From Ruditapes philippinarum (Eukaryota): DNA of 64,000 bases. Position 1 is the first letter of the stretch; every line of letters begins with the position of its first letter. The notes under the pieces are model-generated. The model worked only from the letters and a program-made list of their open reading frames with translations, made no database searches and was not told the origin of the DNA. Below, piece after piece: positions 6,412-48,200 of this stretch. The position numbers and the translations under genes are program-made. The stretch spans positions 248,001 to 312,000 of the forward strand of contig NW_026863297.1 of the NCBI RefSeq assembly GCF_026571515.1. The letters are read 5' to 3'.

Positions 6412-9400
6412 GTAAACTACATATTAATTACACCTGTTGACCAGCAGATGCCTAGCTTTTAAATTGTTCTTTATAATCAATGCCTGTTTAGTATTGCCAC
6501 CTTTGTTGTTTTGATGAAAATTAGATATTTGTTCAAGGTCATTTTCCTCTTGTGTAGATCTATCCCATTCCCAATCAGCAAGTTAAACACATCCTACTAT
6601 ATAGTATATAAACGTTTGCCTGCTATCCTTGCTTGGTAGATGTCCTGGCTATCTCAAAATCAACCTGTTAAAAACCTTGTGCACCTGTCAAATTATATAA
6701 AACCATGTCTCTAATATCATTTAGAATAGAATAAATTTATTGTTATGAATATGATAGATATGAATCCTGGGGAAATATTCTTCTTATCAAGTTTGTAAAC
6801 TTGCAATGCACACGGATATCAAATCTTAACATTAAATTACCAGGGTTCTACAAACCCTTTAGTCGGACGTCTGGGACAACTCTAAAACCACTTCGGACAA
6901 CTGACATTTACTTGAATAAGCAGAAAGTCAACAAATTTTGACAGATCTATGCTTATTTTGGACAACGGTTTACTAATACAATCAAACACAGCATGGTGCA
7001 TCAGTTATCAATTTCAGCAGGCGATTAATTTCACATTGCCACATGCAATCAAAATAGATTAGACTACTTTTGTTAAGAAAATTATAAACAAAGTGGACAT
7101 GAAAAAAATCTATTAAGTCACAGAAAAAATAAAGTAAAACTGAAACAAAACATACACAGACTATTGACGGTGATTCTTGCTTATATAACAAGACTCCGAT
7201 AAAAGGCCTCTTTGCTAATCAGGATTTTATTTAAAATCATGCAGTTTCCCCAAAAATGTGAACTTAAACAGGTCTGCTTATTTACCTCCCAAATTAGCAA
7301 TTTTATTATTAGCGATAATTTTTCCCTAAATCAAGCGGCAAAGGCCTCTTCCCAATTAAGTGAGAAAAATCACTGATTGAACTTAAATGTTATAACAGCG
7401 CTGAAAGGTACCTGGGAAGATTGCTGAACAATTAAAATGGTGGCACTTCCAAAATGTTTGGGGTGAAGGACTGTATGAAATTGTTTTTCTTGATATAATA
7501 TAAAGACATAAATTTTTGTAGTCAGTATTTGTAAATGTATTACATGTACATTTGTAAATGTATCTTGTTTTTGTTTTCAGCACTCAGGTGCGTGGGATGG
7601 CCACATTGAAAGAAAGTAAGTTTATAATTTGATACATGTGTTATTATAAAATTGTTATTATTAGATTGTATTTACTTTGCACAGCAATCAATATAAATAG
7701 GATATTTTTTCTGTATAAATTTATAAATAAAGAATTATGCAAATAATAAAAGTAGGTCACAAAAATTCCCAGTAATTTAGCAGTCTGTTCTTCTGACATT
7801 GAATGACTAAGTTGTTAAAAGTTAAAATTGAATGCAGCTACAATGTTCTGTATAAACAATTTTCAGCAATATAGAAATAATTTCTTAGTTCTTTATAACT
7901 AAGAGATTTCATAAAGGGTGTAGTGGCCTAGTGGTTAATATGTTTGCCTCTAACTCCAGGTACATGTACACGTGTCATGGACAGTCACACCATGTTTATT
8001 CACTAGTCTAGGCACCAGTACTGGTTTGTTCCAGTTCTGATAAATATAAGTTGTAAGAACAGTCAAGCTGAAATAAATAAGTTCAAACTAATGAGAAGTT
8101 ATTTTTTGAACAGTTCGGCTGCGTTTGAAGTCTGTACAGAATATTCAGAAGATCACTAAGTCAATGAAGATGGTGTCAGCTGCTAAATATGCTCGTGCAG
8201 AAAGAGACCTAAGATCAGCAAGGTCCTATGGTATTGGGGCTGATGGTGCGTATTTCTTTTTGATCACAATTAGGGGTGATAAGGTTAGCTAATATGCTGA
8301 GGTTTAAATGGTGACATGATAACCGTATTAAATGTTTAACCAACCGTACAAAAAGAACTCTTACATTTAAAACATTATCTTTGTTACTGTATGACAAGTT
8401 ATGACATTTATTTTGTATGTTCTACTCAACAAGATTTCAACAAATATCCAATGAAAGAGTCACTATTTTCTGCTAGGTCCGTACTGTATACAAGATAGCA
8501 TGCAATTGAGAAAATACACAGATGTACGACTAAATTAAAAACAAAATGCCATACCTGGTCATAATTAAACAAAAGCAATATATTAAATCATTCTTAAATG
8601 TCTTTTACTGTTGGTCTAATACTAACATCGGTTACAGTTTATTGGATTTTTTAACCTTTTTTTGGCTAAAACCGAACCCGTTTAAACGGATGAACTTGGC
8701 ACCCTAATTATACCCCCGCACAACAAAGTTGTAAGGGGGGTATACTGGAATCAGCCTGTCCGTCCGTCTGGCTGTCCGTCGGTTTTTTCTTGTCCGCCCA
8801 ATAACTTAAGATTCCTTTGACCCTTAGTCTTCATATTTGGCATGGAGGTTAGTCATGATTAGTAGATGACCCCTATTGATTTTGAGGTCACTAGGTCAAA
8901 GGTCAAGGTCACAGGGACCTTGACATCAAAAAGCTTGTCCGCCCAATAACTTAAGATTCCTTTTAACCCATAGTCTTCATATTTGGCATTTAGGTTAGTC
9001 ATGATTAGTAGATGACCCCTATTGATTTTGAGGTCACCAGGTCAAAGGTCAAGGTCACAGGGGCCTTGACTTCAAAAAGCTTGTCCGCCCAATAACTTTA
9101 GATTCCTTTGACCCACAGTCTTCATATTTGGCATGGAGGCTAGTCATGATAAGTAGATGACCCCTATTGACTTTGAGGTCAAAGGTCCAGGTCATAGGGG
9201 CCATGACTTCAAAAAGCTTGTCCGCCCAATAACTTAAGATTCCTTTTACCCAGAGTCTTCATATTTGGCATGGAGGTTAGTCATGATTAGTAGATGACCC
9301 CTTTTGACTTTGAGGTCACCAGGTCAAAGGTCAAGGTCACAGGGGCCTTGACTTCAAAAAGCTTGTCCGCCCTATAACTTGAGATTCCTTTGACCCACAG

Positions 9401-11712
9401 TCTTCATATTTGGCATGGAGGTTAGTCATGATTAGTAGATGACCCCTATTGATTTTGAGGTCACCAGGTCAAAGGTCAAGGTCACAGGGGCCTTGACTTC
9501 AAAAAGCTTGTCCGCCCAATAACTTAAGATTCCTTTGACCCACAGTCTTCATATTTGGAATGGAGGTTAGTCATGATTAGTAGATGACCCCTATTGATTT
9601 TGAGGTCACCAGGTCAAAGGTCAAGGTCACAGGGACTTTGACTTCAAAAAGTTTGTCCACCCATTAACTTAAGATTCCTTTGACCCACAGTCTTCATATT
9701 TGGCATGGATGTTAATCATGATTAGTAGATGACCCCTTTTGATTTTGAGGTCACCAGGTCAAAGGTCAAGGTCACAGGGACTTTGACTTCAAAAAGTTTG
9801 TCTGCCCAATAACTTTAGATTCCTTTGACCCACAGTCTTCATATTTGGCATGGATGTTTATCATGATTAGTAGATGACCCCTTTTGATTTTGAGGTCACT
9901 GGATCAAAGGTCAAGGTCATAGGGACTTTGACTTCAAAAAGTTTGTCCACCCATTAACTTAAGATTCCTTTGACCCACAGTCTTCATATTTGGCATGGAT
10001 GTTGATCATGACTATAAGGTGACCCCTATTGATTTTGAGGTCACTGGGTCAAAGGTCAATGTCACAGGGACCTTGACAAAAAAAAGCTTTTCTTCTCAAT
10101 TGCTAAAGAATGTCCTGTCCGCAATGTATTGATTTTGACATTTTCACATTTGAAGGATGTAGTAACCTCAGATTTGGCAGGGAGGTTGTCCTTGAGCTCT
10201 AAATGGCCACTGTTGATTCTGACAAAGTGGTATGCGGGGGTATTCACGCCATGATAGTGGCAGTTCTAGTTATTTCTGATTCCATTCACATAAAGTTGTG
10301 TCTGTTAATCTTATTAAGTAAATTCACTAATAAAAATTATTCTTTTTAAGTTACGTTTTTTTGAATAAAAGGGTTTATTATTTTGATATTAAAATCCCTT
10401 ATTAAAAGCAGGACAAACAATTTAGCAGGTTTAATGTATAATTTTATTAATATCATCTTGTCAAGAGTAGGTTACATTTATATATTGTAAATAAAAAAAA
10501 ATTATCCCAGACTTTACACATAAATGAAGATTGAATTAGGATTGAATGCAAGAAATTGATTAGGCTTGTGTTCACAATTGTGGCTGTGGAGTAGAATTTT
10601 TGTTATTATGTAAAGAAAGAATACTATGTTCCATGCTCTGTTTATATTTTTTTGTTCAGCATTTTTTGAGAAGATAGCCCCAGAAGAAAAAGAAACAGAG
10701 GGCAAGAAGAGTCAAGTGTTTATTGCTATGACTTCTGACAGGGGATTGTGCGGTGGTGTACACTCGAATGTCTGTAGAGCTATCAAGGCAAAAATGAACG
10801 CCAAGGAGTCCGGTGTCGAGACCAAATTGATACTCATCGGTGATAAAGCCAGGAATATATTACAGAGGTTTGTTTTTAGCTCGACTATTCGAAGAATATG
10901 AGAGCTATTGTAGTCGCCCCGGCGTCGGCGTTGGCGTCTGCGTTGGTTAAAGTTTTTTGTAAAGTCAAATATCTCAATTATTTCTTGAGATATTCAATTG
11001 AAACTTACAATACTTATTTATAGTAACAAGGTACATCAGATTGACAAGTTGGATAACTCTGCCTACAATATTGACAGAATTATGCCCCTTTTTAATTTAG
11101 AAATTTTGGTTAAAGTTTTTTGTAAAGTCAAATATCTCAATTATTTCTTGAGATATTCAATTGAAACTTACAATACTTATTTATAGTAACAAGGTACATC
11201 AGATTGACAAGTTGGATAACTCTGCCTACAATATTGACAGAATTATGCCCCTTTTTAACTTAGAAATTTTGGTTAAAGTTTTTTGTAAAGTCAAATATCT
11301 CAACTATTGCTTGAGATATTCAATTGAAACTTACAATACTTATTTATAGTAACAAGGTACATCAGATTGACAAGTTGGATAACTCTGCCTACAATATTTG
11401 CAGAATTATGCCCCTTTTTAACTAAGAAATTTTGGTTAAAGTTTTTTGTAAAGTCAAATATCTCAATTATTGCTTGAGATATTCAATTGAAACTTACAAT
11501 ACTTATTTATAGTAACAAGGTACATCAGATTGACAAGTTGGATAACTCTGCCTACAATATTTGCAGAATTATGCCCCTTTGGAACTTAGAAATTTTGGTT
11601 AAAGTTTTCTTGTAAAGTCAAATATCTCAATTATTGCTTGAGATATTCAATTGAAATTTAAAATACTTTTTATGCCACCGCAGCATCTGCGATGCGGTGG
11701 CATATAGCGATT

Positions 11713-11743
<31 letters not shown>

Positions 11744-14700
11744 TTGTTTGTTTGTTTGTGTGTGTGTGTGTTATATGGATTATATAGTGAACTTAAAAAA
11801 TCTTCTTGTGAAAAACCACTAGTCCAATTTCAATCAAACTTGGCAGGATTGATCCTTGGGTGAAGGGCTTCCAAAGTTGTTCAAAGAATTTAATTCCATG
11901 CAGAAATCTGGTTGCCATGGCAACAAAAAGGAATTATAAGAATAAATTTTAAAAATCTTCTTGTAAAGACCCAAAAGGCCTAGAGCTTAGATATTTTGCA
12001 TAAGGCATTGTCTGGTAGACCTCTACCAAGATTGTTCAAATTATAGCCCTGGGGTCAAAATCGGCCCCGCCCCGGGGGTCATTGATTTTCACTATATGTA
12101 CATATAGTAAAAACTTAAAATACCTTTTTATAAAGACCCATAGGCCTAGAGCTTAGATATTTTGCATAAGGCATTGTCTGGTAGACCTCTACCAAGATTG
12201 TTTAAATTATAGCCCTGGGGTCAAAATCGGCCCCGCCCCGGGAGTCATTGATTTTCACTTTATGTACATATAGTTTAGACTTAAAATACCTTCTTGTAAA
12301 GACCCAAAAGGCCTAGAGCTTAGATATTTTGCATAAGGCATTGTCTGGTAGACCTCTACCCAGATTGTTCAAATTATAGCCCTGGGGTCAAAATCGGCCA
12401 CGCCCAGGGGTAATTTATTTTCCTCATATTTACATAGTAAAAAACTTATAATAAAAACTTAAAATAAATTCTCCTAGCAAATGCTAGAGGTTAGATATTT
12501 TGCATGAAACATTGTGAAGGGAACCTCTAGCAAGATTGTCCAAATAATAGCCCTGGAGTCAAAATTGCCCCCTCCCCGGGGTCATCGATTTTCAATATAT
12601 ACATATAGTAAAAAATCAAAAAAATCTTATTGTCTGAAGGTACTAGGCTTAGAGCTTTAACAAATATGTTTGTTTGTTTGTGTGTGTGTGTGTTATATAG
12701 ATTATATAGTGAACTTAAAAAATCTTCTTGTGAAAAACCACTAGTCCAATTTCAATCAAACTTGGCAGGATTGATCCTTGGGTGAAGGGCTTCCAAAGTT
12801 GTTCAAAGAATTTAATTCCATGCAGAAATCTGGTTGCCATGGCAACAAAAAGGAATTATAAGAATAAATTTTAAAAATCTTCTTGTAAAGACCCAAAAGG
12901 CCTAGAGCTTAGATATTTTGCATAAGGCATTGTCTGGTAGACCTCTACCAAGATTGTTCAAATTGTAGCCCTGGGGTCAAAATCGGCCCCGCCCCGGGGG
13001 TCATTGATTTTCACTATATGTACATATAGTAAAAACTTAAAATATCTTTTTATAAAGACCCATAGGCCTAGAGCTTAGATATTTTGCATAAGGCATTGTC
13101 TGGTAGACCTCTACCAATATTGTTCAAATTATAGCCCTGGGGTCAAAATCAGCCCTGCCCCGGGGGTCATGGATTTTCACTATATGTACATACAGTAAAA
13201 TTTTAAAATACCTTCTTGTAAAGACCCAAAAGGCCTAGAGCTTAGATATTTTGCATAAGGCATTGTCTGATAGACCTCTACCCAGATTGTTCAAATTATA
13301 GCCCTGGGGTCAAAATCGGCCCGGCCCCGGGGGTCATTGATTTTCCTCATATTTACATAGTAAAAACTTATAGTAAAAACTTTAAAAAAAATTCTTCTAG
13401 CAATTGACAAATGCTAGAGGTTAGATACTTTGCATGAAACATTGTGAAGTGAAACTCTAGCAAGAATGTTCAAATAATAGCCCTGGGGTCAAAATTGCCC
13501 CCGCCCCGGGGTCATTGATTTTCAATATATACATATAGTAAAAAATCAAAAAAATCTTATTGTCTGAAGGTACTAGGCTTAGAGCTTTAATATTTGTTAA
13601 ATGATATCATCTTTAGGTACTCTACCAAAGTTGTTCAAATTTTGCCTCTAGTGTCAAAATTTAAAGTGAACTTTGATATCAGCTGACCTTGATTTTGACA
13701 AAGTGTATTACATGTTGTCCTTTGATGCAGTCATGAAATTTTAGGCTGTGTGAAATATGACCTTCACCACCAAATTCACTAGACTCAAGTGCATTGATAT
13801 ATTCCTACTCTGATCTTTTATTGAGTTAACAATAGATTTAACCACTAATCTGATAATAAGAATTAGATATGCATTATGACAATCTTCAATTGTATAGAAA
13901 CAAAAAAAAATCTGTTCCTACACTACTATTTAGTGTTGTATTAATGCAGTGGCATAGCATTTTTTTCAAATGCAATCTTGTTTATAGTAACAATGTACAT
14001 CTGTTTTCAATGTTGCATAACTCTGCCTGCAATATTTGCAGAATTATTTGCTCTTTTGAAACTTAGAAATTTTGGTTAAAGGTTAAAGGTCTTCAAAGAT
14101 ATTTACTTGAAACTTTACACATGTACTAAGGGTCATAATTTGAGGGTCATAATTGTATGTCACTGACTAAGTTCCATAACTCTATCTTGCATTAAGGCTG
14201 ATTCATATCTCCTTTTCTACTTTAGTCTCTTGGTTAATGTTTACATGCAAGTTTTACATATCTCAATAACTATTAAAGATATTTATTTAAAACTTCACAT
14301 ATGAATTTAGGGTCATAATTGTAGGTCACTGACAAAGATCCATAATTCTATCTTGCATTTAGGCTGATTTTTCTCCCCTTTTTCAACTTAGAAATTCATG
14401 GTAAAGTTTTGCTTGTAAGCTGTTATCTCCGTAACTACTGAAGGGTTTGTGCCTTTTTTGGGACAATTTTATGCATTCATAATAATAAAGCAGTTATTTA
14501 CTTGATAAAACATCTTAATAACAAGCCTTTGTACCTTTTCTGTCAAATTTAAGTATTCATAGGTAATTAGTATTATTATACTCAAAAAACACACTTGTGA
14601 CATTGTAACCTTCCGAATAGTCAAGCCAATACTGTATAATTAGACTCTCACTAAGGCCTATAACATGAATTTATGGAGAAAAAAAATAGCCCTTTTGTGA

Positions 14701-17855: not shown

Positions 17856-18897
17856 TATGCCCCCCTTCAAAGAATCGGGGGTATATTGTTTTGCTGATGT
17901 TGGTCCGTCAGTCTGTCTGTCTGTAGGTAGACCACATGGTTTCTGCTGATTATCTTATAAACTATTTATCTCAAAGTCTTCAGATTGCACATAGTGGTTG
18001 GTCATATAGAGTACATGACCCCTATTGATTTTGGGGTCACTAGGTTAAAGGTCAAGGTCACTGGGGCCTTAAATGTCATAATGGTTTCCGCTGATTATCT
18101 TGAAAAACTATGCATCAGAAAGTCTTCATATTTCACATAGTGATTGGTCATAACTAATGGATGACCTCTATTGATTTTTAGGTCACAGGCGCCTTATATG
18201 TCAGAATGGTCGTCGCTGATTATCTTGAAAAGTATTCATCACAAAGTTTTCATATTTCACATAGTGATTTGTCATAACTTGTAAATAACCCTTGTTGATT
18301 TTGGGGTCACCAGGTCAAAGCTCACAGGATCCTATGATTTCAGCTCATGAAAGCTAATTATCACAAAGTCTTTATATTTCACATAGTGATTGGTCATAAC
18401 TAGTAGTTGACCCGTATTGCTTTTGGGGTCACTAGTTCAAAGGTCACAGGGGCCTTAAATGTCAGAATCATTTCCTCTTATTTTCTTGAAAACTATGCAT
18501 CACAAAATCTTTATAATTCACATACTTATTGGTCATAACCAGTAAGTGACCCCTGTTGATTTTTGGGTCACAGGGTCCTTGAATGTTAGTATGGTTTCCG
18601 CTCATTATCTTGAAAGCTATTTATCATAAAGTCTTCATATTTCTCATATTGATTGGTCATAACTATTAGATGACCCCTAGCTCAGAGGTCAAGGTCACAG
18701 GGGCCTTAAATGTCAGAATGGTTTCCGCTCATTATCTTGAAAACTTTTTATAACAAAGTCTTCATATTTTTCTTTTTTCCATATCTAAACACTTCCATGT
18801 ACCCATTTATGGCAAGTTTGTACAACAAAATAACCAATAATGTGAGTCAAAGCAAGGGCTAGAAAGGGGGCATATGTGTCGTTTGACATTTCTTGTT
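17856..18897 (+). mobile_element. Older Helentron/HINE-like element related to 8709-10271
   Basis: ATGCCCCCCTTC / GAAGGGGGCAT sub-TIR, (GTCT)n, degenerate GACCCCTATTGATTTTGGGGTCA units, TGTC-N4-GACA hairpin and CTTGTT end. Confidence 0.8.
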
Positions 18898-30200: not shown

Positions 30201-33200
30201 TTGGTCTATACATGGATAAAATTGAAAACAAAGAAAAAAAATTTTTTCTTTAAAAAAATGAATCTTTGAGTTTCTGATGAAACATAAGAAATTTTATAAT
30301 CTTAGATTGTTACCCATCATGTGTTCAAATAAAATTACAGTAATTCAAACTTACAGAGCTTTTATAGTTTGTTTTGTTTAACCTGTACCACCCTATACAT
30401 CTTCAATGGACTTGTCCATCTGTCAATCTGGACCAAACCGTTCATAATTTTTTAGGGAAATTTTGAAAATAAGTATTGATTGAATTGTGATTGAATTGTG
30501 AACAAGAAGCCATGTTATGCAATGAAAACCAGATTTTCAACGACCAAGTTTTGATGTGACAGCTATCAATATGGTAGGTCAAAGTGCACTGCAGTTATTG
30601 AGTAGAAGCTGAAAATTCTATTGAGTATTGTAAGCAAATGACCTTGACCTTGCTCCCAAATATCTAAGTGGCAATCCAAAGCTGCCACACAGCAATTTTG
30701 GTGAAGCAAACTCAAGTTATAATGTGAAAACTGAACTTCTTTCTTTTAAGCAACATTGACCTTGTTCACAGACCCCTGAGTAGCAATGCTAAGTTGCCTC
30801 TTGAAATAAGCTGCCCATACACCAAGTTTTGTGTCAATAGGCCAAAGCAAACTCAAGTTATTGAACGGAAACCAAAAGTTGACACCTGGCCGCCCGCCCA
30901 CTTTGGCATTACAACAAATTATGGTGTGGAAATTTCTATTTTTAGCTATTTTTAGTAACAGTGATCTTTACCTTGATCACAGACACAGGGTAGCAATCCC
31001 AAGCTGCCTCTTGATATACGCTATCCATACACCAAGTTTGGTGTCAATAGGCCAAAGCAAACTCAAGTTATTGAATGGAAACCAAAAGTTGACACGTGCC
31101 CGCCCACGGACTTTGGCATTACAATAACCAGTTTTCGTTGAAAACCTGGTCAACAATGAGGATCATGACCACACAGCACTGATTGCCAGCTGATCTTGGT
31201 CTGCACTGGTCACATGAGTAAATTAATTCCTCCCCCCCCCCCCCCCATCAAAGTAAAGGTTTAGCTTAGTGCCAAATAATTACTGGAAATCATGTGACTC
31301 TCCTTAAAGGCTTAAAGTTGCAAATCCCATGTTGAGACACCTTACTGTCTCCCTACTGTGCCAATTCGGCGAGCCATCGAGATAATTAAAGAAGCCTGTT
31401 TCAATTTCAAAACTAAACAGAGCAGAATTAAGTTTGATAATACATATATAAGGAAAATTTTGGTTTAATGCAATAAATTATATATTAAATATACAATCAT
31501 GTATATGTACTTTATTTTCCTTTCTTAGAAGAATGCCCATGCTGTAAAAACAACTTCATCTAGCCTACTTTCCCTTCAAAACTTGTACAACCAGAAATTC
31601 AAATAAATGTTTAAATGGCACCTAATTAAAAATAATTTTCTGCCCATGTTCAGTGTCTGCCATATCGAGAAGTTTTTTTTTTTATCAACAGATGAGGAAA
31701 TTAGCCAAAAGAAAGAAGAAATTAAGAAAACTACAAAATAAAATGCAATTAGGAACCCAAAAACTTAGATTGAGACGTATTTTCTACAATTTTTTTCGCA
31801 ACACAGTATTGATATTTGTTCTCTCTCTCTCTCTTTATAGCATGTATTTAATACAATCCACAATTTCAGGTATGAACTTTGACTATATATATTAATATTA
31901 TATCCTAAGGTTCCATTGCAACATAAATATTTTCAGTTTGTACAAGATTTTGTAGCTATATATAAAGAATTGAGAGGGGACTATGCTGGATAATTTTGCT
32001 AACAAAATGTGTACCAGATTTTTTGCAGGTAATGATGTGGTGAAAAGAGATGACATGCTTGTTGATAAACCTAGAGATACTGTTGATTCCTGATAAAATA
32101 AAAACATGAATTAAATCAATTAACATGGAATCAAATCAGTTTATATGGAGTGAATCAATAAACATGAAATTGAATCACTTTATATGGAGGGAATCAATAT
32201 TAACATGAAATTGAATCAGTTTATATGGAACAAAACAATTAACATGAAATTGAATCAGTTTATATGGAACAAATCAATTAACATGAAATGTAATCAGTTT
32301 TTATGAAACGAATCAATTAACATGAAATTGAATCAGTTTATATGGAGGGAATCAATTAACATGAAATTGAATCAGTTTATATGGAACAAATCAATTAACA
32401 TGAAATTGAATCAGTTTATATGGAATGAATCAATTAACATGAAATTGAATCAGTTTATATGTAACAAATCAATTAACATGAAATGGAATCAGTTTATATG
32501 GAGCGAATCAATATTAACATGAAATTGAATCACTTTATATTGAATGAATCAATTAACATGAAATTGAATCAGTTTATATGGAATGAATCAATTAACATTA
32601 AATTGAATCAGTTTATATGGAATGAATCAATTAACATGACATTGAATCAGATTATTTGTAACAAATCAATTAACATGAAATGGAATCAGTTTATAAGGAG
32701 TGAATCAATATTAACATGAAATTGAATCACTTTATATTGAATAAATCAATAAACATGAAATTGAATCAGTTTATATGGAACAAATCAATTAACATGAAAT
32801 TGAATCAGTTTATATGGAATGAATCAATTAACATGAAATTGAATCAGTTTATATGGAATGAATCAATAAACATGAAATTGAATCAGATTATATGTAATGA
32901 ATCAATAAACATGAAATTGAATCAGATTATATGTAACAAATCAATTAACATGAAATGGAATCAGTTTATATGGAATGAATCAATTAACATAAAATTGAAT
33001 CAGTTTATATGTAACAAATCAATTAACATGAAATTGAATCAGTTTATATGGAATGAATCAATTAACATAAAATTGAATCAGTTTATATGTAACAAATCAA
33101 TTAACATGAAATGAAATCAGTTTATATGGAGCAAATCAATTAACAAACAGAATCAAATAAGTTTATATGGAGCAAATCTATCAATTAGCATAAAAATTGA

Positions 33201-36200
33201 ATTAGTTTATGCATAGCAATGGGATCAAATCAGTTTATATGCAGCAAATCTATTCAAATCGTACAAATTTATATGGGATCAAATTAATAAACATGGAATA
33301 AACATCAGATCAAATTGGTTTAAATGCTGCAAATCAATTAACATGAAATTGAATCAGTTTGTATGGAGCAAATCTATTAATGTGAAATTAAAATCAGTTT
33401 ATATAGAACAAATCAAGTGATTGGAAATTAAATCAGTTTAATATATGGAGAAAATCCATTAACATGGAATAAAATCAGTTTATGTGATACAAATCTATAA
33501 ACATGGAATTAAATTGGTTTATATGGAAGTAATCAATAAACATACTGCATTAAATGAAATAAATTCACACTGAATAATGTGATGAAATAACAATGAGCAA
33601 ACAGCCTAAAAACTAAAATATATATCTTTAATATGGAAACTATTTATAATTTCAAGCACACATATTCAATTCAAAGCAACATTCTATTATTGCTCACAAT
33701 ACAGGCAAACAATACATTTCACAATAATAAGAGTCACAAATAATGCATGCTAACTAGAACCAAACAATCAGCATTTTAACTAATATCGTACATAGGGCTT
33801 TATAGATCTACCAGTATATATATATTTATTTCAACACTCAAAGATTCCAATCAATTTAATCAAAATTTTTCCACAACCCGAGACCTCCTCTGTTTACCAT
33901 TTATTGTCCATGAATATAAGCAATTCAGTTTATTTGCATTTAAACTGATACACTATACATGTGTATTTATATTTTTGTCATATCTGCATTTCAAATATGG
34001 AATGTTGCACTAGCAGCATCTTAATTTGTCACCTTAGTGCAGTTACAGGTTAACTCCTATTAAATAGTATAAGGAGTTTACCCATTACTGCTCTAAGGTG
34101 ACAATATCCATCTAAAATGTTAGTTTCTATATATTTTTATTAGTTTTTGGATTAAATCACATTATAAGTAAGCAGAGATGAAATGATTTATACAAGTTAA
34201 GAGATACATGATTAGTGACCTTCATCCATTTAATATTTTTTTCATATTTTGCTAAAAAATGAAAATTTGGAGTACCAGTGACTTGCCCTGCATTAAAGGG
34301 TGTAGTGGTGGTGAAAATTATGAAAACTTTTAGAACTACAGAAGCGTGTACTTATTTGAGCCGAGTCACAACAAAACCAACATACATGTAATGGTCTGCG
34401 CAGTCTGATCAGATTCCATGCTGTTAGCTTACAAACTCTATTACAAGTAGAGAAACTGATAGCGAACAGCATGGATCCTGATCAGACTGCACATATGTGC
34501 AGGCTGGTCTGGATCCATGCTGGTCGCAAACCCACTATGTTGGTTTTGTCATGATGCGACTCATTTTAATCTCTTTTAATTTAATATAGGGCATATCTGA
34601 ATAGAGTCCTAGCAAAAAGTGTCACTGTTTTGTAACACTTGTGGATTTATTATTTGAAAACAGAATAAACTATGTATCTTAACAAAATATTTATATAATG
34701 AAATTTTCAAATAATATATTCAAAAGGGTTAGCAAGTATTTCGCATCATGTGCTACCTACATAATCAGAATCTACAGACATTATTCATTAATCTATGTTC
34801 TTTGTTTTGTGTTGGGTGTTTGATTTTTATAAAGATACAAAGAAATACAAATTCTACTAATCAAAGACGCCCAAAACAGCTGTACTGTATACCAGTACCC
34901 TTTAAAACATTGCGTTGTCCATGGTTACCATGATCAAAAAATAAATAAAAATAATTAAGTGTTGGTAGGACTGTACAGATAAAAAAATACAGGCTGGCAA
35001 AAATCTATACTGGTGTCATAGGCAAGTCAATGTTACAACATTGGTTCTGAGAAATTTGAAAAAAAAAAGGTCCTCACTCACCAGATCTGGATGGTTGTCA
35101 GCTACAGGGTTTGGCGGCCCGGGATCTGATTTTACTCTACATAATTTTGATTTATGATGGTAGTCTGTGACCACTTGTTGGAATGTCTGAAAAATATAAC
35201 ACATGGTAATATAAATATAGGGAACCAGTCGAGACTTTAACACTGAACTTGTGCTAGACATAAAATAAGGAACTTATTTAGTTATTTAATTAAAGTGACA
35301 TCTGACTAAAATTATAAAAAAAATTACACTTACTGCAAACCAGTCCAAGCCTTGACCACTGTTGGCCCTGTAAAAAAACAAAAACAAACACTTAGATATT
35401 GAAAAATGTGATGGAATGAAATTGTATTTTTTAATTTGTCCTCAAAATCTGCTCAGTTTTTCCATACCCTGAATGTTTGTGCACTATCTCCCTTTAATTC
35501 TCCTAATATAACAACAAGAAATCATTTTTGTTACTAAATATAGAATCTGTTTCACTGTCGAGCAGTAATTACTGTCTAGCGGAGCCAGTTCAACTTGAAC
35601 TACCTACCATATAAAAACTATAATTATATTTATTTCTGTAATGAATGAGAACCTATGTGTACTTCAAATACAAAAAATATTCATGAAAGTAATTGCAAAA
35701 GGCAAGACAATTCTCCTTTTACTGTAATGCCTATTTAAATACCAATCTCAAAGCTATTTTATCCTTACTTTCCAAACACATATCAATCTTTTTAGCCTTC
35801 CCTGTTATTTTGTCTCATTTAGGTACCATTCTACTAAATAACAAAACCCATTCTCTATGGAGATAAAGAACAAAATGTAGATAAATGTAAGAACAAAATT
35901 TAGTTAAATCTATCCATCCTACATGTTTCCATGGTTACCAATTTTAACTACCATCCCTTTAAATCTATTTGCCTCTGTTGCTATAGTAAATAGGTAAATT
36001 AAAACTGATTGTTTTACATTTCTATTTGTTTAAACACTAAACAGCATAAAAAGCAAAAAGTCTCCAATTTTCCCCTATAATTATGTAAAAGCCTGTTTCA
36101 AAAAAAATATTGAAACATAAGAATTAATATGATCAAACTCATTCCTGGGACTAACCCACACAAGCCTGATATTCTTTGTTCTCCCAATAAAGGCCAGTTA

Positions 36201-39200: not shown

Positions 39201-42200
39201 AATGTTTGGAATTTTAAATTCGTTAACTTTCGAAATGAGACACATCCTATAATACAGTATCTATTACACACACTATAAAGAGAAGGATTTAATAAATACA
39301 TACCAGCTTCTTCATGGCAGTATTGGAATGACTGGCAGCCTCAGTCACAAGGTCCAAGGCTTCTGTAAATGGCAAGAGAAATTTATGTGTAGACAACATT
39401 TATATGTTTACATTTGAATTTCATTTAAATGTCATTGTGTGGATATAAATGGATTTACTATTAGGGAAGAATATAAAAGTTATTTATAATTTTTTTTTAT
39501 AGAACTTGAGGTCAATAATAACAAACCAAAATGACCAGTACTTGAACCTAATCAAAATAAAAAGAAATAAGTAGGGGCTGATCTGTTAAATTTTTGTGTT
39601 TTTTTTGTTTGTTTTTTTTTTTGGTGGGGGAGTGGGGATTTTATGTTGCACCAACACAGTATAGGTCATATGGTTACTTTCGAGCTTTACCGAAGGAGCA
39701 AGACATCAGGTGTTCTTCTGTGCATTATTTCAGGCATGAACGGGCACCAGCGTAAAACCACCGATGTTCCATGAGCTAGCTGGAAAGCTTCTTCGCATGA
39801 AAGAATTCATAATCAGGATTTGAACACACAGCTATGATGGGCAAGTGGTTTGAAGTCTTTGACCTTAACCACTCCGCCATGGACGCCCCTACCTTTAAAT
39901 TTAGTTATAATTATAAATCTTCATTCGTGCATTACATTTTTATGTAAGTTATTAGTTAAAAAAAAAATAATAAAAGTGTGTCCAGACAAAATACTTACTT
40001 TGGGCATCAGGTCGATCTGGCGAGTCTTGTGGAAGTCTTTTTAAATAATCTGAAAAATGAAAAGGTAAAATGGAAATTACTGCAAAATCATTATTATTCA
40101 TGGGGCACTAATTTTCATTGTTTACAATCCACGAATATAAGATCTATGAAATTTCATTTCGTCTGCTGTAAGATTATTTTGCATCACATTATTTACTTTT
40201 TACCTTTTGGAAAAATTACCAGTTCACGAATTTAAGGACCCTTGAAAATGTCTTTTTTGTGATAAGGCCACAAAGTTTCATATTCAGTGGAAAAGGTCTA
40301 TAATAATCACTGCTAGCACTGGGAAACTGTTTTATTGTACTTCAATGATTTTTATTTATTTCATGAAATGTCATGGGCACATTCAATAAAACTTTGAATA
40401 GTCTCTTAAATATCTCCTTTATTACTATAAGAGAAAATTTATGGAAAAAAAAACAAATTTCATTTACATGACTGTGTATTACGTTTGGTCATGAAATCCC
40501 ATTGATATTATTTTAATATTCTGTTAACAAATTCGATCAAAATTGCACCTGCGTTAAAATGTTTACATGATAATTTCAAGATCATGAAATTTTTACAATC
40601 TGAATATCATTTAAATAGCAATATGGATAAGTTAAAGAAGACATTGCCTTGGGGCTGCGTTCTGTGAACATGGCCTATCTTGGTTCTCATATTTTTTTAA
40701 AAATTTATTACAGAGCTTTCATGAACCAAGGCAGAGTGTCATGAATATTCATTAAGGTTCATAAAATTGCTCTTTATGTAATGACAGTCATGGAAATTTC
40801 TATTAAGTGATGATAATATTTTCTTGTAGCAACTGGTATTACCAGTATGAAACCAGTGCATACCAAGATCAGTCCCCCTTAAACCTACTGGCATAAAACT
40901 GATTTTACCCATGAAACCAGTGCAAACCAAGATCAGTCCGTATATTGGTGCCTTCTGATTATTTGGTGTGCACTTGATTCAGTCAATACATATCATATGA
41001 AAATTCCTTCTATACCACAATGGATTAAATACAAGTAGTTTTTTTCCCAGATTGAATGAATGGTCCATATCCATTAAGATAATTTTTAGGGTTTAAACTG
41101 TAATTTTGAAAGAAAAATTTTTACCTTTAAGGAGCTTTTTCGTATCTAGGCAACTCGTTGGATAGGCTCTAACATGTGATGCTGTAGGGTTTTTAGTTGT
41201 CCGTCATTCTGGTGGAGTTTTGCTTGATGAGAAAAACAAAGAAAATTCAAATAGAAATATAAGTTCATTTGCTACACTAGAGTTAAGGTAAGTCTTTACT
41301 CACAGCAATGATTTAAATTCTATCCCGCCAAAAAATGTCTTTAACATAAGCTAGTATTGTACTCAATGATCCAGTCATTTTTCCGTGAACGCGATTTATT
41401 TTTTTTCACCCAATACTTTGGCATTTTTCATTAATTTTTAAATTGTTTTAACAACCAGAATTTTATAATAGCGTTTAAAAAGGTTTAAAATTTATTTTAA
41501 ATAAAATTTTAAAGCCCCCAAAAAATTTTTTTCTTCATTAAAGGAATTAAAACCCGTCTAACAAAAACACAAAAGGGCAGATTGGTTTTTTGCAAATAAA
41601 ATTTTTATTTTTAAAAGATTATAGAAGGGGAACCTTCCACATTTCCATTTTTTTTTTTCCTGGGGGGCTTTAAACTTTGGGCTTAAAACCAAAGGGTAAA
41701 ATTGTAAATGGTCTTTTTTAAAAATGTTTGCAAAACCCCGCATATTGAAATTTGGGAAAAAGGGGAACCATTTTTTAAAGTATATGATTTTAATTTTTTT
41801 TAACACTAAGAACTTTATCAAACTTAAAACATCTTGTTTCCAAAGAATTTTTATTATTTCCCAATTTTCTATGTCATACATGGCAAACATGGTGGGGGGG
41901 GGGGGTAAATGTCCGGGACAATATACAGAAAATTACAGAAAACCAACCAAAAAGTCACTGAATTTTGTATGTGCAAGCATTAATAGATTATAATTGCAAT
42001 ATTTATAAATGCAGTTTAGTAAAGGGGAAATTTACAATTCAGAACGTACTGAAAAACATAGAAGTTTACTCTTCACTAACATATCATATTTTGCTTTAAA
42101 ATGACTAAAACACAGCAGAATTATGTACATATAAGGATTTCAAAATTCAAACAACAATTGGGCATCAAATTTATTCATTGTGTCAAGATGATATTTAGTT

Positions 42201-45200
42201 CTTTTGTGTCTCATTAATTTAACATAGTCATAGAACTTTTGCTTAATGTTTATCATCTTTGCAAGCCTGGTGTAGGCATATCTAAAATTATTTCAAAAGC
42301 TAAGAAAATTTCTGATGTTGGAACTGCATTACTCGGTCATTGACTGCAATTCAGCATTATTTTGACTTTTCATATTAAAGTCAGTTATGTTGCTACCTTA
42401 ATAACAACTAAGAAGTGCCAGAGGCATGATATTTAAATAATGATAAACTTTACTTGATTCAAATCGTTGATATTGGAGAGCAAACAACCTTGCAATAATG
42501 ACCTTGACCTTTGACCTATAGGACTAGAAATAAATATTTTTTCTGATCACTAACCTTTATATCCTGAAGAAGTGTAGCAAATCGCGGCGATTGTGACGTC
42601 CATTTATCAATCATGGCCATCGCCTTGTCATAATTCTTCACATACTCTGTATAGATCTTCAGGAAGGGCGCCAGCTTTGCCATTACATCACCAATCCTCT
42701 GAGAGCTTGACCTGGAACCAGAAAAAACAAGATGGATGACTGTCTAGATTCTGGATCAGTAGACGGGAAAATTGGGACAGTTGCCAGTCATTACACAAAA
42801 TAATAATCAATCAGAAAAGTCAAAGAAGATAATAACATTCCTTTTGAAGAAATTCCCACCTACAGCGGCTGTATTAACTAATAAATTATACCAAATCAAG
42901 TCCAAATGTTTTAAACATGGCTAACATTGATAAATTTTATTCTTATTTTATTTTCAATTTCAATAATGAATAGTTTTATATTGAGTTTAAAGCTCACATG
43001 CTTTATAATACTGCATATTTTTAAATGCTGCATTTCATTGGATAATCGTGACATTTAATTGGCTAATTGGCTTATATACACGACTACTGTCAATTTATGA
43101 AGAAATCTCACTTTTTTTGTCTAAATAAGGAAGTTTGCTGTATTATAAAATCGTTATAGATATTCCTGAAAAATGTTTATAACTAATAATATAACTTAAT
43201 CTCTTAAACAATGCCAAAACCCCAGTCAGCTGACTTTTCTTAAGAAATAAATGTACAGAAGTTCAACTGGTTGCAAGAGAAATCTGAGCTACTGAGAAAC
43301 ACCTTTTTCAGGTGTTTCATTTCTTATTCTTCCACAAAATTTCAAACAGGTTCAAATTATACTTTTGTATGATCTTGTGGACAAAAATAAATTATTATAA
43401 TTAATTTGAATTTGAAACAGTCTATTGTTAATTTAAGAGATTATAAAAGGTAAAATAGGACCCATTGAAGGTAATTTTTACTCTAAGGAAGCTAACAATC
43501 TGGTCAGTGTGCTGAGACGTCCTAGCTGGTACAGATGTATAGACCCGCATGGCATTTTACTTGTGACATTCCCCTATTAAAACAATTAATGTAAACCTCC
43601 TCATAGCTGCCCTTTGTAAAGCAATAACCTCTTTACAATAAAAGCCTCATTTTTCTCCCAAAAAAAACTTCACAATAAAAAACCTGTCTTGAGCAAACAC
43701 CTCTCGGCAACATTCAAATTCTTTGGTCTCCCAGGGTGTTGCTTAGCAGAGGTTTTACTGTACGTACCAATGCTGCATCCTATCTTCAAGTTGAGGGAGC
43801 AGGAAATCTTTGTGAAACAAGCATATAGGTTTTATGTTCGCAAACATTGTATTGATGTCGTCTGCTGGCAGGAAGTTACCGTTCTTGCTCTCCATGGTAA
43901 CGCGGAAATGGAACGTCTACAAAAATATGCAAAAATATATTGGCTTAAAGTTCAGTCGTAAAGTACATTTTTGACTTTTTGCCATAATTTAATAAGTTTT
44001 CTGACTTACAGATTTTATTCATTTACTTTTAAAAAGACTATTTTGGTCTAACATACCAGTGTATAGCCATGCAAAGTTTGATAATTTCTATGCATAAACA
44101 TGCATTTTTTTTACCTAGGACGGAAAAATGTTTAGAATAATAAGACATTTATTATAAACATTGTTAAATCAAATCTATTGTCTCATAAATCAGCTACCAT
44201 ATTAAACCATAATATCGGATGATCTTATTCAGAAGCTTTATCCTCAATCATTACAGATAAACATTACATAATAGTTGTATTTTGAAACAATACATATTAG
44301 TTTTATAGAGAATATAAATTTTGTTTGTTTGTTTTGCATGTAAGAAAGAAAAGTGAACAACTGGTTGCAATATTTACATGAGTGGCATACCCATACGTGA
44401 AAACATAACAGGTCATATGTTCATGAGTGGATATATATAATTTCATCTTATATGCAAACAAACAAGTCTTCTTTTTTATTTCAAAAGGAAGATTTATTGA
44501 CTTTTGCTGCAAAATTTGTGATGTAACATGTTAATGTTGGAAATTTTCTGTTTTTGAAATTTCTCAAATTTCTCTACTAACGACATTCAATGTGCAAATT
44601 TTTATAGGTTTTCTGTAATAATGCACATTTGAGCCGTGTCACGACAAAACCAACATAATGGGTTTGTGACAAGCATGGATCCAGACCAGCCTGCGCATCC
44701 GCGCAGTCTGATCAGGATCCATGCTGTTCGCTGTCAGTTTCTCCACTTGTTATAGAGTTGATAAGCGAACAGCATTGGATCCTGATCAGACTGCGCGAAT
44801 GCGCAGGCTGGTCTGGATCCATGCTGGTCGCAAACGCACTATGTTGGTTTTGTCGTGACACGGCTCATTTCTCTTATTTCAGCAAAATTGTAATAATACT
44901 TAAATGCTTTACACCATCATTCAAAATAAAGTTTGGCTTCTGTAAAATTATCAACATATATTATTGCACTATCTACTGACAGTAAGAGTTGGAATATATC
45001 TTCTGTTAAAATGTCTGCAGCTTTTACAAGGAAAACCACATGAGTGGGTAGAAATTATTCCCTGAAACTTGCTGAAAATATCATCCTTGTTGATTATAAA
45101 CCTTTATTTTTCTCCATGAATTTAATATTGGTAAAAACCACAAAATTTCCACTTGATATTCTAAACATGTATAATATCTGATTTAGTCTAGGGAAAAATT

Positions 45201-48200
45201 ATTTTACGTAATAGTAAATATAGATCTTAATCCCTTGTGAAATTCTTCCTTCTTATACCTGTTTTAATGTGGTTTCCATAAAAATACCAGTATAGGGAAT
45301 AATTTAATATATAAAACACATGAAATGTTACATTTCTTATTAAGATTCCTGAAATTAGCAAAAACTTCAGGTTGTTAATCTTCCTAACTAAACCATATCT
45401 TTCTAGTCTTGAACAAGGTATTACTTGATCTACATTAAACTAGGTATTAACTGTTTAACCTAACTAGGCATTACATGATCTACCCAACTAACCAGGCACT
45501 ACCTGTTTTACCTTACCAGGCATTACCTGATCTACCTAACTAGGCATTACCTGATCTACCTAACTAGACATTACATAATCTACCAAACTAGGCATTACCT
45601 GTTTTATCTAACTAGGCATAACCTGTTATACCTAACAATGCATTACCTGATTTACCTAACTATGCATAACCTAATCTACCTAACTAGGCATTACCTTATC
45701 TACCTAACTAGGCATAACCTGCTTTACCTAACTATGCATTACCTAATCTACCTAATTAGGCAATACCTAATCTACCTAACTAGGCATTACCTGATCTACG
45801 TAACTAGGCATTACCTAATCTACCTAACTAGGCATTACCTGATCTACCTAACTAGGCTTTACCTTATCTATCTAACTAGGCATTACCTGATCTACCTAAC
45901 TAGGCTTTGCCTAATCTACCTAACTAGGCTTTACCTAATCTACCTAACTAGGCATAACCTGTTTTACCTAACTAGACATTACCTGTTTTACCTCACTAGA
46001 CCATTCCTGATCTACCTAACTAGGCACTCCCTGTTCTACCTAACTAGGCATTACCAAATCTACCTAACTAGGCATAACCTGTTTTACCTAACAATGCATT
46101 TCCTGTTTTACCTAACTATGCATTACCTAATCTACCTAACTAGGCATTACTTGATCTACCTAACTAGGCATTACCTAATCTACCTAACTAGGCATTACCT
46201 GTTTTGTCTAACTAGACATAACCTGTTTTACGTTATTTACCTAACTAGGCATTACCTAAACTACCTAAATAGTCATTACCTGATTAAACCAAAAAATAAA
46301 TATATTACCTGATCTATAAGGTTTAATCTAGCTACATAGGCCCTCTCAGTTGTAAGAAGTTCATGTGCGATCTGATGTAGCTTATCTTTGGGTTTCTCCT
46401 CTTCTTCCTATAGAAAAATAAATTCCCCATTCATTAATGAATCAAGTGTACTTAAAACTGATAAGCTAATTAGTACTGTTAGATAAAATAAACTAAAATA
46501 GCATTTGACATGAACAGCACCTAAAATATATCTCTATGTTTAATTGAATGAACAATTTGTCTACAATTTCATGACTGGGCTTGATAAGGCAATTGACTTG
46601 AACTAGACAATATAAATGAATACATGTAATAAGTTTTAGTTAAACCTAAAGACAACTAAATAAAACCATGAACAAAAATATTCTGTTGGAATTCTATTCT
46701 ATGTACATTGTATATAAAGTTATGTATGTGCATTCAATGGGTCCATGGTCCCTGCGTTGAGAGGACACGGTCCCTGCGTTGAGAGGACACGGTCCCTGTG
46801 TTGAGAGGACATGGTCCCTGCGTTGAGAGGACATGGTCCCTGCGTTGAGAGGAAATGGTCCCTGCATTGAGAGGACATGGTCCCTGCGTTGAGAGGACAT
46901 GGTCCCTGCGTTGAGAGGACATGGTCCCTGCGTTGAGAGGACTCATTGCCCCTTTGTGCATTATTTCAGGCACAAACAGGCACTCGAGTAGAACCACAGA
47001 CATTTTGTAAGCTAGCTGGATAGCTCTCTCACATGATGCTGGCACTGCTCGAACCTTAGTAACAGTGGTGAGAGGCAAAGGGGTTTAAAGTCAGAGGCCT
47101 TAACAACTTTTTCAATTCAATTCATCTTCCATGAAATATTTTAATACAAAAGATGGGTGGAATTCCTTAATAATACATGTACAAGCAAAAAAAAAAACAC
47201 TGATTAATTTGAAGTCAAAAGAAAAGTAACGTAAAAGATAAAGTCAGATGAAATCTTTAAATGTTTAAAACAACTCCTTTTATGTAAAAAGTTAGGTATC
47301 TGAAAAAGTGTAATCAAGTTCAAAAGCCACCTCTGGGCCTCAGTGCCTTGTCAAGATTAATGTCTATATGAAATAATAAGAAATATGAATTTCATTTAAA
47401 ATTAACTGATACATTAATACAAAGCCAGAAAATGAAAAAATCAAATGTCAAAATCTGTCTGGCAGACTGTTTTTACATGAGACATGTGTAAATAGAAAAT
47501 GTGTAACGGTGACAATTTACATGAAAAAAATAATAATAAATAAAGAAATAAAAAACAAAATAAAAAAAACAACAAGTAAAGTAATGTGATACTAAAATGA
47601 ACATTGAAGACTGTACAAGGAAGATTTTTTCAAAAGATACCATTTCTTCCACACTATTTACAAATCATTTAAGCTGGAATGCACATATCATATAGAATGC
47701 ACTTTCCAGTTCATTAATTTTTCCCAAGATTTCAATCTTTCCAATACCTTAAATTTTCATGTAATTCTTTTTTTTCAAACTCAAAAGTTATCTCCCTTTC
47801 TTACACCCATTTTCTTAGTGACATTAAAATTATCTCCCCTTCCAACAATCATTATTTTTTCTTTCTTCCAACAAACATTAATTTTTCTTTGTGATAATAA
47901 TTGTACAATATAATTCAAAATAATCACAAACTTATCATTTGTTCATTAATATGTTTGGGATTTTTTTCCTACCTTTTTTAAGTCCAGTGATAAAATCATG
48001 CATGTTATCTGTTTAATTTAACTTCAAAATCAATTCATTGTTGAAAAGATTACATTTAAGAGAAAATCAGAAAGAAGTTAAATTATAATTTGCATAAACA
48101 TATTTATCTTAAAAACCAATTTTCTACTTTTGAATTAATATCTATTTTACTATCTATTATTTAAAACATGGACTTTTAAAACCGTTTTATGAGCATTACA

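What the first reader, a model, noticed from the sequence alone, without database searches (positions are those of the whole stretch)
45400..46320. Intronic minisatellite built from copies of the adjacent exon's own splice donor
Seen: the first DH exon of the FGD-like gene ends ...ATAGATCAG|GTAATA (46309). About 20-30 nt into the intron a 24-bp array of about 35 units begins. Its sense-strand unit, TAGGTAGATCAGGTAATGCCTAGT, shares 13 identical bases (TAGATCAGGTAAT) with the true exon/intron junction. Each unit has two AG|GTA motifs, so the pre-mRNA carries dozens of donor look-alikes right behind the real one. The nearest (46280) would extend the exon by 29 nt and shift the frame, and the array is full of sense-strand TAG stops. 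Inference: the array was seeded by slippage across the splice junction. It may act as a U1 snRNP decoy field, an NMD-coupled expression switch, or an AG/GT re-splicing ladder whose strength varies with copy number.
Basis: partly seen in the sequence, partly recalled or inferred. Interest (0 to 1): 0.7.

Follow-up and report, generated by a model that had tools for sequence, protein, structure and literature searches.

The report
Splice-donor minisatellite in clam FGD intron
The end of one exon of a clam cell-signalling gene, with its splice signal, closely matches a 24-base unit repeated about 36 times in the next intron; the one transcript join that could be read uses the true signal, so this is likely a harmless repeat of a kind already known from human and lancelet genes.

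Summary
In detail: 36 units of 24 bp fill the start of the intron behind the first RhoGEF (DH) exon of a clam FGD4-like gene, found nowhere else in the genome search. The exon peptide is old, so exon-to-array is the likely direction. The proposed functions are unsupported. The one readable RNA join is canonical; donor columns are no better conserved than other columns; all 59 donor-like array sites would give a premature stop; 53 of 54 AG|GT sites lack a pyrimidine tract. RNA depth was too low to exclude a small leak. Reads suggest a second allele at the array start. This is a new member of a known kind: junction-spanning minisatellites (human F7, CBS, ABCA7; amphioxus 'mirages'). The scan noted this kind before on other DNA, including several other genes of this genome (unchecked notes).

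The parts
46309..46407 (-). First DH-domain exon (99 nt, 33 aa) of an FGD4-like RhoGEF gene
   Evidence: Translation; matches P0001; RNA-type contig X7 record of 512 nt
46304..46341 (-). Likely seed of the repeat: last 33 exon bases plus GTAAT; holds two TAGAT direct repeats 14 nt apart (46330, 46316)
   Evidence: 46341-46326 matches the rotated unit 13 of 16; 46316-46304 matches 13 of 13
46303..46311 (-). Authentic splice donor CAG|GTAATA (no +5 G)
   Evidence: Joined to 43916 in X7 contig; 7 of 9 consensus letters
46268..46291 (-). First, decayed unit with the nearest pseudo-donor CAG|GTAATG at 46280 (+29 nt; frameshift)
   Evidence: a 3-nt deletion at 46295 in 5 of 5 X23 and 2 of 2 X24 reads would make it +26, still frameshifting
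45413..46291 (-). 24-bp minisatellite, 36 units, variant types GATT, GATC, AAAC at unit positions 7-10; most decayed at both ends
   Evidence: only locus in genome searches
43917..46308 (-). Host intron (2392 nt)
   Evidence: X7 contig skips it; P0001 reads DQ|TF
43768..43916 (-). Next DH exon (TFHFRV...MQH)
   Evidence: its own donor joins to 42710 in 4 of 4 runs

Best explanation
This is a single-locus intronic minisatellite whose unit matches the adjacent exon end and donor at 21 of 24 letters and likely arose from them; the spliceosome likely uses the first, authentic donor and removes the copies with the intron, so the array is likely tolerated rather than regulatory. Inferred steps: a 38-nt piece spanning the junction was duplicated, lost 14 nt between its two TAGAT repeats, and the 24-nt result expanded by slippage or unequal crossing-over. 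The copies are as good a match to U1 as the real site, so position (first donor after the exon, as shown for human F7) is the likely discriminator, helped by the real site being more open in folding models. Any leak would give a premature stop and would likely be cleared by nonsense-mediated decay.
For: Shown: unit found only in this array (9 of 9 hits at up to 1 mismatch, 26 of 26 at up to 3; 1 BLAST place). 13-nt match beyond all 6267 control windows; second exon block 13 of 16, reached by 5 of 1479 random stretches. Peptide around the junction conserved in 20 of 20 listed proteins. Canonical join 46309 to 43916 in one X7 contig. Donor columns not conserved above background. All 59 listed G|GT array sites lead to a stop. 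Real donor opening energy 1.7 kcal/mol vs median 4.1 for the 47 AG|GTA copies; 5 of 59 sites are more open. Known: F7 pseudo-sites are functional but unused; amphioxus mirages do not disturb splicing.
Against: Only one contig shows the join letter for letter, from a run whose RNA status is a guess; raw RNA runs laid only 15 and 18 reads, with no spliced end reaching the 3-read listing threshold; the loose-end table on the acceptor side was swamped by a transposon, 548 rows unseen. The real donor lacks +5 G, unlike 7 of 7 other donors of the gene that were scored, and 12 of 59 array sites bind U1 as well or better in the model, so a leak is plausible. The two-block origin was found after looking (post hoc). 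The first intronic 29 nt are not a clean unit. No related species' DNA was available to date the array.
Confidence: 0.75

Rival explanations
1. ABCA7-like leak: the nearest pseudo-donor (46280) is used in a few percent of transcripts and feeds NMD, and/or array length changes skipping of a neighbouring exon, so alleles differ measurably in FGD dosage.
For: 46280 equals the real donor from -5 to +5 and in U1 energy (-8.1), and is fairly open (2.6). ABCA7 shows about 2% one-unit retention and length-dependent exon skipping; 6-16 and CBS use two pseudo-sites. Reads suggest alleles at the array start.
Against: No loose end at 46280 in any of 4 runs (low depth). In ABCA7 the retention did not vary with length. 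No sign of selection on donor columns.
Confidence: 0.18
2. Selected regulatory device: U1 decoy field or AG/GT recursive-splicing ladder tuned by copy number.
For: 47 AG|GTA motifs in 0.9 kb; the site at 46280 has 70% pyrimidines upstream, like true acceptors (60-75%).
Against: 0 array AG|GT sites have +5 G; median upstream pyrimidine share 0.45, 53 of 54 at most 0.5; 46280 is only 29 nt from the donor; GT is broken in 4 and 5 of 36 units, at background rate.
Confidence: 0.04
3. Coincidence or reverse flow: the array came from elsewhere, or arose from intron sequence and later converted the exon end.
For: The first 17 intron bases do not look like the unit; genome search counts are lower bounds.
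Against: No second locus; control windows reach at most 10 nt; the exon codons spell a peptide conserved far outside clams; 0 of 36 units carry the exon's ATG at unit positions 22-24, and the exon keeps its own letters.
Confidence: 0.03

Closest known systems
Human F7 intron 7 37-bp VNTR; also 6-16, CBS intron 13, lamin B2 and PDGF intron 4 minisatellites (Borensztajn et al. 2006, PMC1557585; abstract, Introduction and Discussion read)
   Same: Intronic tandem array right behind an exon; unit repeats the exon end and donor; many pseudo-donors behind the true one; most upstream donor used.
   Different: Here the unit is not a straight copy: it looks like the junction piece with a 14-nt internal loss, the first unit is decayed so that the spacing is 29 not 24 nt, each unit has gained a second AG|GTA, and silence of the copies is shown by one contig only, not by minigenes.
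Amphioxus 'mirage' minisatellites (Adh3, globins BflGb6, BflGb9; PMC3087553, passages read)
   Same: Tandem copies of an exon/intron boundary in a marine invertebrate; unit size within the 10-72 bp given for Adh3; ends of the array less homogenised; haplotype differences.
   Different: Length instability and RT-PCR were shown there; here only read-level hints of a second allele, no length measure.
Human ABCA7 intron 18 25-bp VNTR (De Roeck et al. 2018, PMC5954066; passages and the splicing results section read)
   Same: About 25-bp unit carrying the donor; use of the next copy gives frameshift, premature stop and NMD.
   Different: There the leak (about 2%) and length-linked exon skipping were measured; neither is shown here.

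Membership tests
Junction-spanning minisatellites (F7 type / mirages) | Head-to-tail array of minisatellite-size units in the intron next to an exon | tested here: met
   36 x 24 nt starting 18 nt into the intron
Junction-spanning minisatellites (F7 type / mirages) | Unit repeats the gene's own exon end and splice donor | tested here: met
   13 of 13 across the junction plus 13 of 16 further up; 10 units keep CAG|GTAAT
Junction-spanning minisatellites (F7 type / mirages) | First element spans the exon/intron boundary, contiguous with the array | tested here: inconclusive
   Junction-to-first-copy spacing is 29 nt (26 in some reads), not 24; the linking unit is decayed
Junction-spanning minisatellites (F7 type / mirages) | Locus-specific, not a dispersed repeat | tested here: met
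   (tool warns counts are lower bounds)
Junction-spanning minisatellites (F7 type / mirages) | Authentic donor is the one mainly used | tested here: inconclusive
   One contig with the canonical join, none with an array donor; depth too low for shares
Junction-spanning minisatellites (F7 type / mirages) | Polymorphic in copy number | tested here: inconclusive
   Sequence variants at the array start in X23, X24, X5; length not measured
Splicing-associated tandem repeats (ABCA7 type) | Repeat length correlates with a splicing outcome | not testable with these tools
   Needs paired genotypes and RNA
Recursive splice sites | Pyrimidine tract before AG|GT (definition recalled, from no call) | tested here: not met
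   53 of 54 sites at most 50% pyrimidine; only 46280 reaches 70%

The most novel reading that the evidence does not exclude
Because this exon's true donor is weak (no +5 G) and its nearest copy is just as strong, natural alleles of the array set a heritable leak of FGD transcripts into nonsense-mediated decay or exon skipping in wild clams: an ABCA7-like splicing rheostat in an invertebrate, in a genome where such junction arrays seem common enough to test donor-choice rules across many loci and alleles.
Probability: 0.12. Interest if true: 0.45.

Novelty: new member of a known kind. Interest (0 to 1): 0.17.

Why it matters
As it stands it is one more example of a described repeat type. Its small added value is that the seed can be read base by base (a junction piece with a 14-nt loss between short direct repeats), and that true and false donors are equal in strength, which makes it a clean natural test of 'first donor wins' in a mollusc. 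If alleles changed FGD dosage, it would be a functional splicing VNTR outside humans.

Tried and rejected
RNA folding of the array gave z = -9.66 against 20 dinucleotide shuffles; rejected as evidence of a special structure because 10.75% of 400 arrays built from shuffled units fold as well (RNA) and 72.75% (DNA). Raw RNA reads X23 and X24 (4-5% of each run read) gave 15 and 18 reads and no spliced end at listing level: uninformative on leak. The acceptor-side lay was swamped by a high-copy transposon; loose ends at 43916 were not among the rows shown, so the upstream partners of the X16, X18 and X20 contigs are unread. A protein search of the genome with the exon found only this copy, so no paralogous intron served as control. 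One gene donor (40001) was mis-placed and dropped, leaving 7. A 33-nt unit near 46243 could be a relic of the longer seed, but a 9-nt duplication inside the unit explains it as well. P0001's longest contig has the same length as the window's contig, so its exon structure is not independent evidence. PMC10078293 (passages) gave no closer case. No claim of absence from print is made; four paper searches listed no mollusc case by title. Supplements were not opened; the ABCA7 tables and amphioxus alignments may hold more detail.

Full report
Observation. The minus strand carries a 99-nt exon at 46407-46309 ([33 protein letters not shown]) ending CAG|GTAATA, and the next exon starts at 43916. The next exon matches P0001 at 100%, which a source names FYVE, RhoGEF and PH domain-containing protein 4-like of Ruditapes philippinarum; tblastn places 16 pieces of it on the minus strand of the window. 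TRF finds a 24-bp array at 45412-46225, 33.7 copies, 82% matches; my segmentation gives 36 units between 46291 and 45413. The 13-mer shared with the junction stands in 5 of 36 units. Units are most decayed at both ends (6, 2, 6, 4 mismatches first; 5, 2, 5, 5 last).

More than chance. The longest exact match between the circular unit and the 116 nt of exon plus flank is 13; 6267 overlapping control windows from both strands reach at most 10. Among 36 flanks of 18 arrays on 264 kb of this contig, the focal flank is the best (13; next 11). Pattern searches of the 1.41-Gb genome gave 9 hits at up to 1 mismatch and 26 at up to 3, all in this array, and BLAST gave one place; the tool warns such counts are lower bounds.

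Origin. The exon holds a second block, 46341-46326, that matches the rest of the unit at 13 of 16 (5 of 1479 random stretches do as well). The two blocks overlap at TAGAT, which occurs twice in the exon 14 nt apart, so the 38-nt piece 46341-46304 less those 14 nt accounts for 21 of 24 unit letters. I found this after looking, so it is strong but post hoc. The peptide here is conserved in 20 of 20 listed proteins, from bivalves and snails to a sea spider and ants, so the exon is the old partner and the array likely the derivative. Duplication, loss between short direct repeats, then expansion is inferred, not shown.

Splicing. A 512-nt contig of run X7 (RNA by guess) joins 46309 directly to 43916. 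The following join, 43768 to 42710, is seen in 4 of 4 runs. No join from an array donor was listed, but the test is weak: raw runs X23 and X24 laid 15 and 18 reads, none giving a spliced end at the 3-read level, and the acceptor-side table was swamped by a transposon. In models, the true donor scores 7 of 9 consensus letters and -8.1 kcal/mol with U1; 12 of 59 donor-like array sites equal or beat that; none of the AG|GT sites has +5 G, nor has the true donor, whereas 7 of 7 other scored donors of the gene do. The true donor is more open (1.7 kcal/mol) than 54 of the 59. All 59 would give a premature stop: 46280 in the next exon, the other 58 inside the extension. So the array cannot add protein.

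Function. Donor columns depart from consensus at 7.2% and 9.3%, other columns at 7.8%: no sign that the motifs are kept. Only 1 of 54 AG|GT sites has an acceptor-like pyrimidine share, against a re-splicing ladder. The strong RNA fold (z -9.66) is what repetition gives.

Variation. Five of 5 X23 reads and 2 of 2 X24 reads at 46295 lack 3 nt, and 5 X23 reads continue after 46275 with array-like but different letters; in X5 a contig identical to the window over 46236-46327 has depth 54.9 against 100.3 just upstream, as expected for a heterozygote. This hints at alleles at the array start; length was not measured. Four X23 reads also have an unexplained loose end at 46314, so some of these reads may not come cleanly from this locus.

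Comparison. PMC1557585 (abstract, Introduction, Discussion) describes the F7 intron 7 VNTR whose first element spans the junction, with functional but unused pseudo-donors chosen against by 5'-to-3' scanning, and lists 6-16 and CBS (two nearest pseudo-sites also used), lamin B2 and PDGF (only the true site). PMC5954066 (passages and one results section) describes the 25-bp ABCA7 VNTR: one-unit retention near 2%, subject to NMD, not length-dependent, while downstream exon skipping is. PMC3087553 (passages) describes amphioxus 'mirages' that do not disturb splicing. The finding works like these and meets the tested defining features, with contiguity, donor use and length polymorphism inconclusive. 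Earlier notes of this scan list 19 findings with these words in at least 12 genomes and several in this genome; they are unchecked leads and gave me the amphioxus paper, which I then read.

Verdict. Real, junction-derived, likely neutral; new member of a known kind. Interest 0.17. An ABCA7-like allele effect is not excluded (about 0.12).

Noticed in passing
window 44627-44870: Palindromic element with 92-nt arms, 95% complementary, hit by thousands of contigs in each of 4 runs: likely a high-copy miniature inverted-repeat transposon in the same intron.
   Followed up: partly
window 41120-41215 (-): A DH exon missing from P0001 is present but garbled by frameshifts ([16 protein letters not shown] in different frames), inside a homopolymer-rich stretch near 41100-41950; likely assembly error rather than a broken gene.
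   Followed up: partly
window 32114-33543: A second minisatellite (39-bp unit, about 36 copies) ends 24 nt before an acceptor of the same gene at 32090 and fades into its pyrimidine tract; its sense consensus has no AG, so it makes no decoy acceptors.
   Followed up: partly
window 46744-46942: Young 22-bp array (9 copies, 95% matches) 340 nt upstream of the focal exon, unrelated to it.
   Followed up: no
window 46275-46314: X23 reads with a loose end at 46314 (4 reads, agreement 0.7) that fits neither exon nor array; adapter, mixture or another locus.
   Followed up: no
window 44016-45400: Run X7 has intron contigs at depth about 7-11 against 4.5 for the spliced contig, but none upstream of the exon; contigs cannot rank levels, unexplained.
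   Followed up: no
window 8789-13563 and 18054-18769: Long-period tandem arrays (145, 163, 166, 122-124 bp).
   Followed up: no
L028 9466-9627: A 26-bp array with a donor-like motif on the minus strand and an 11-nt match in its flank; may be another junction-derived array.
   Followed up: no
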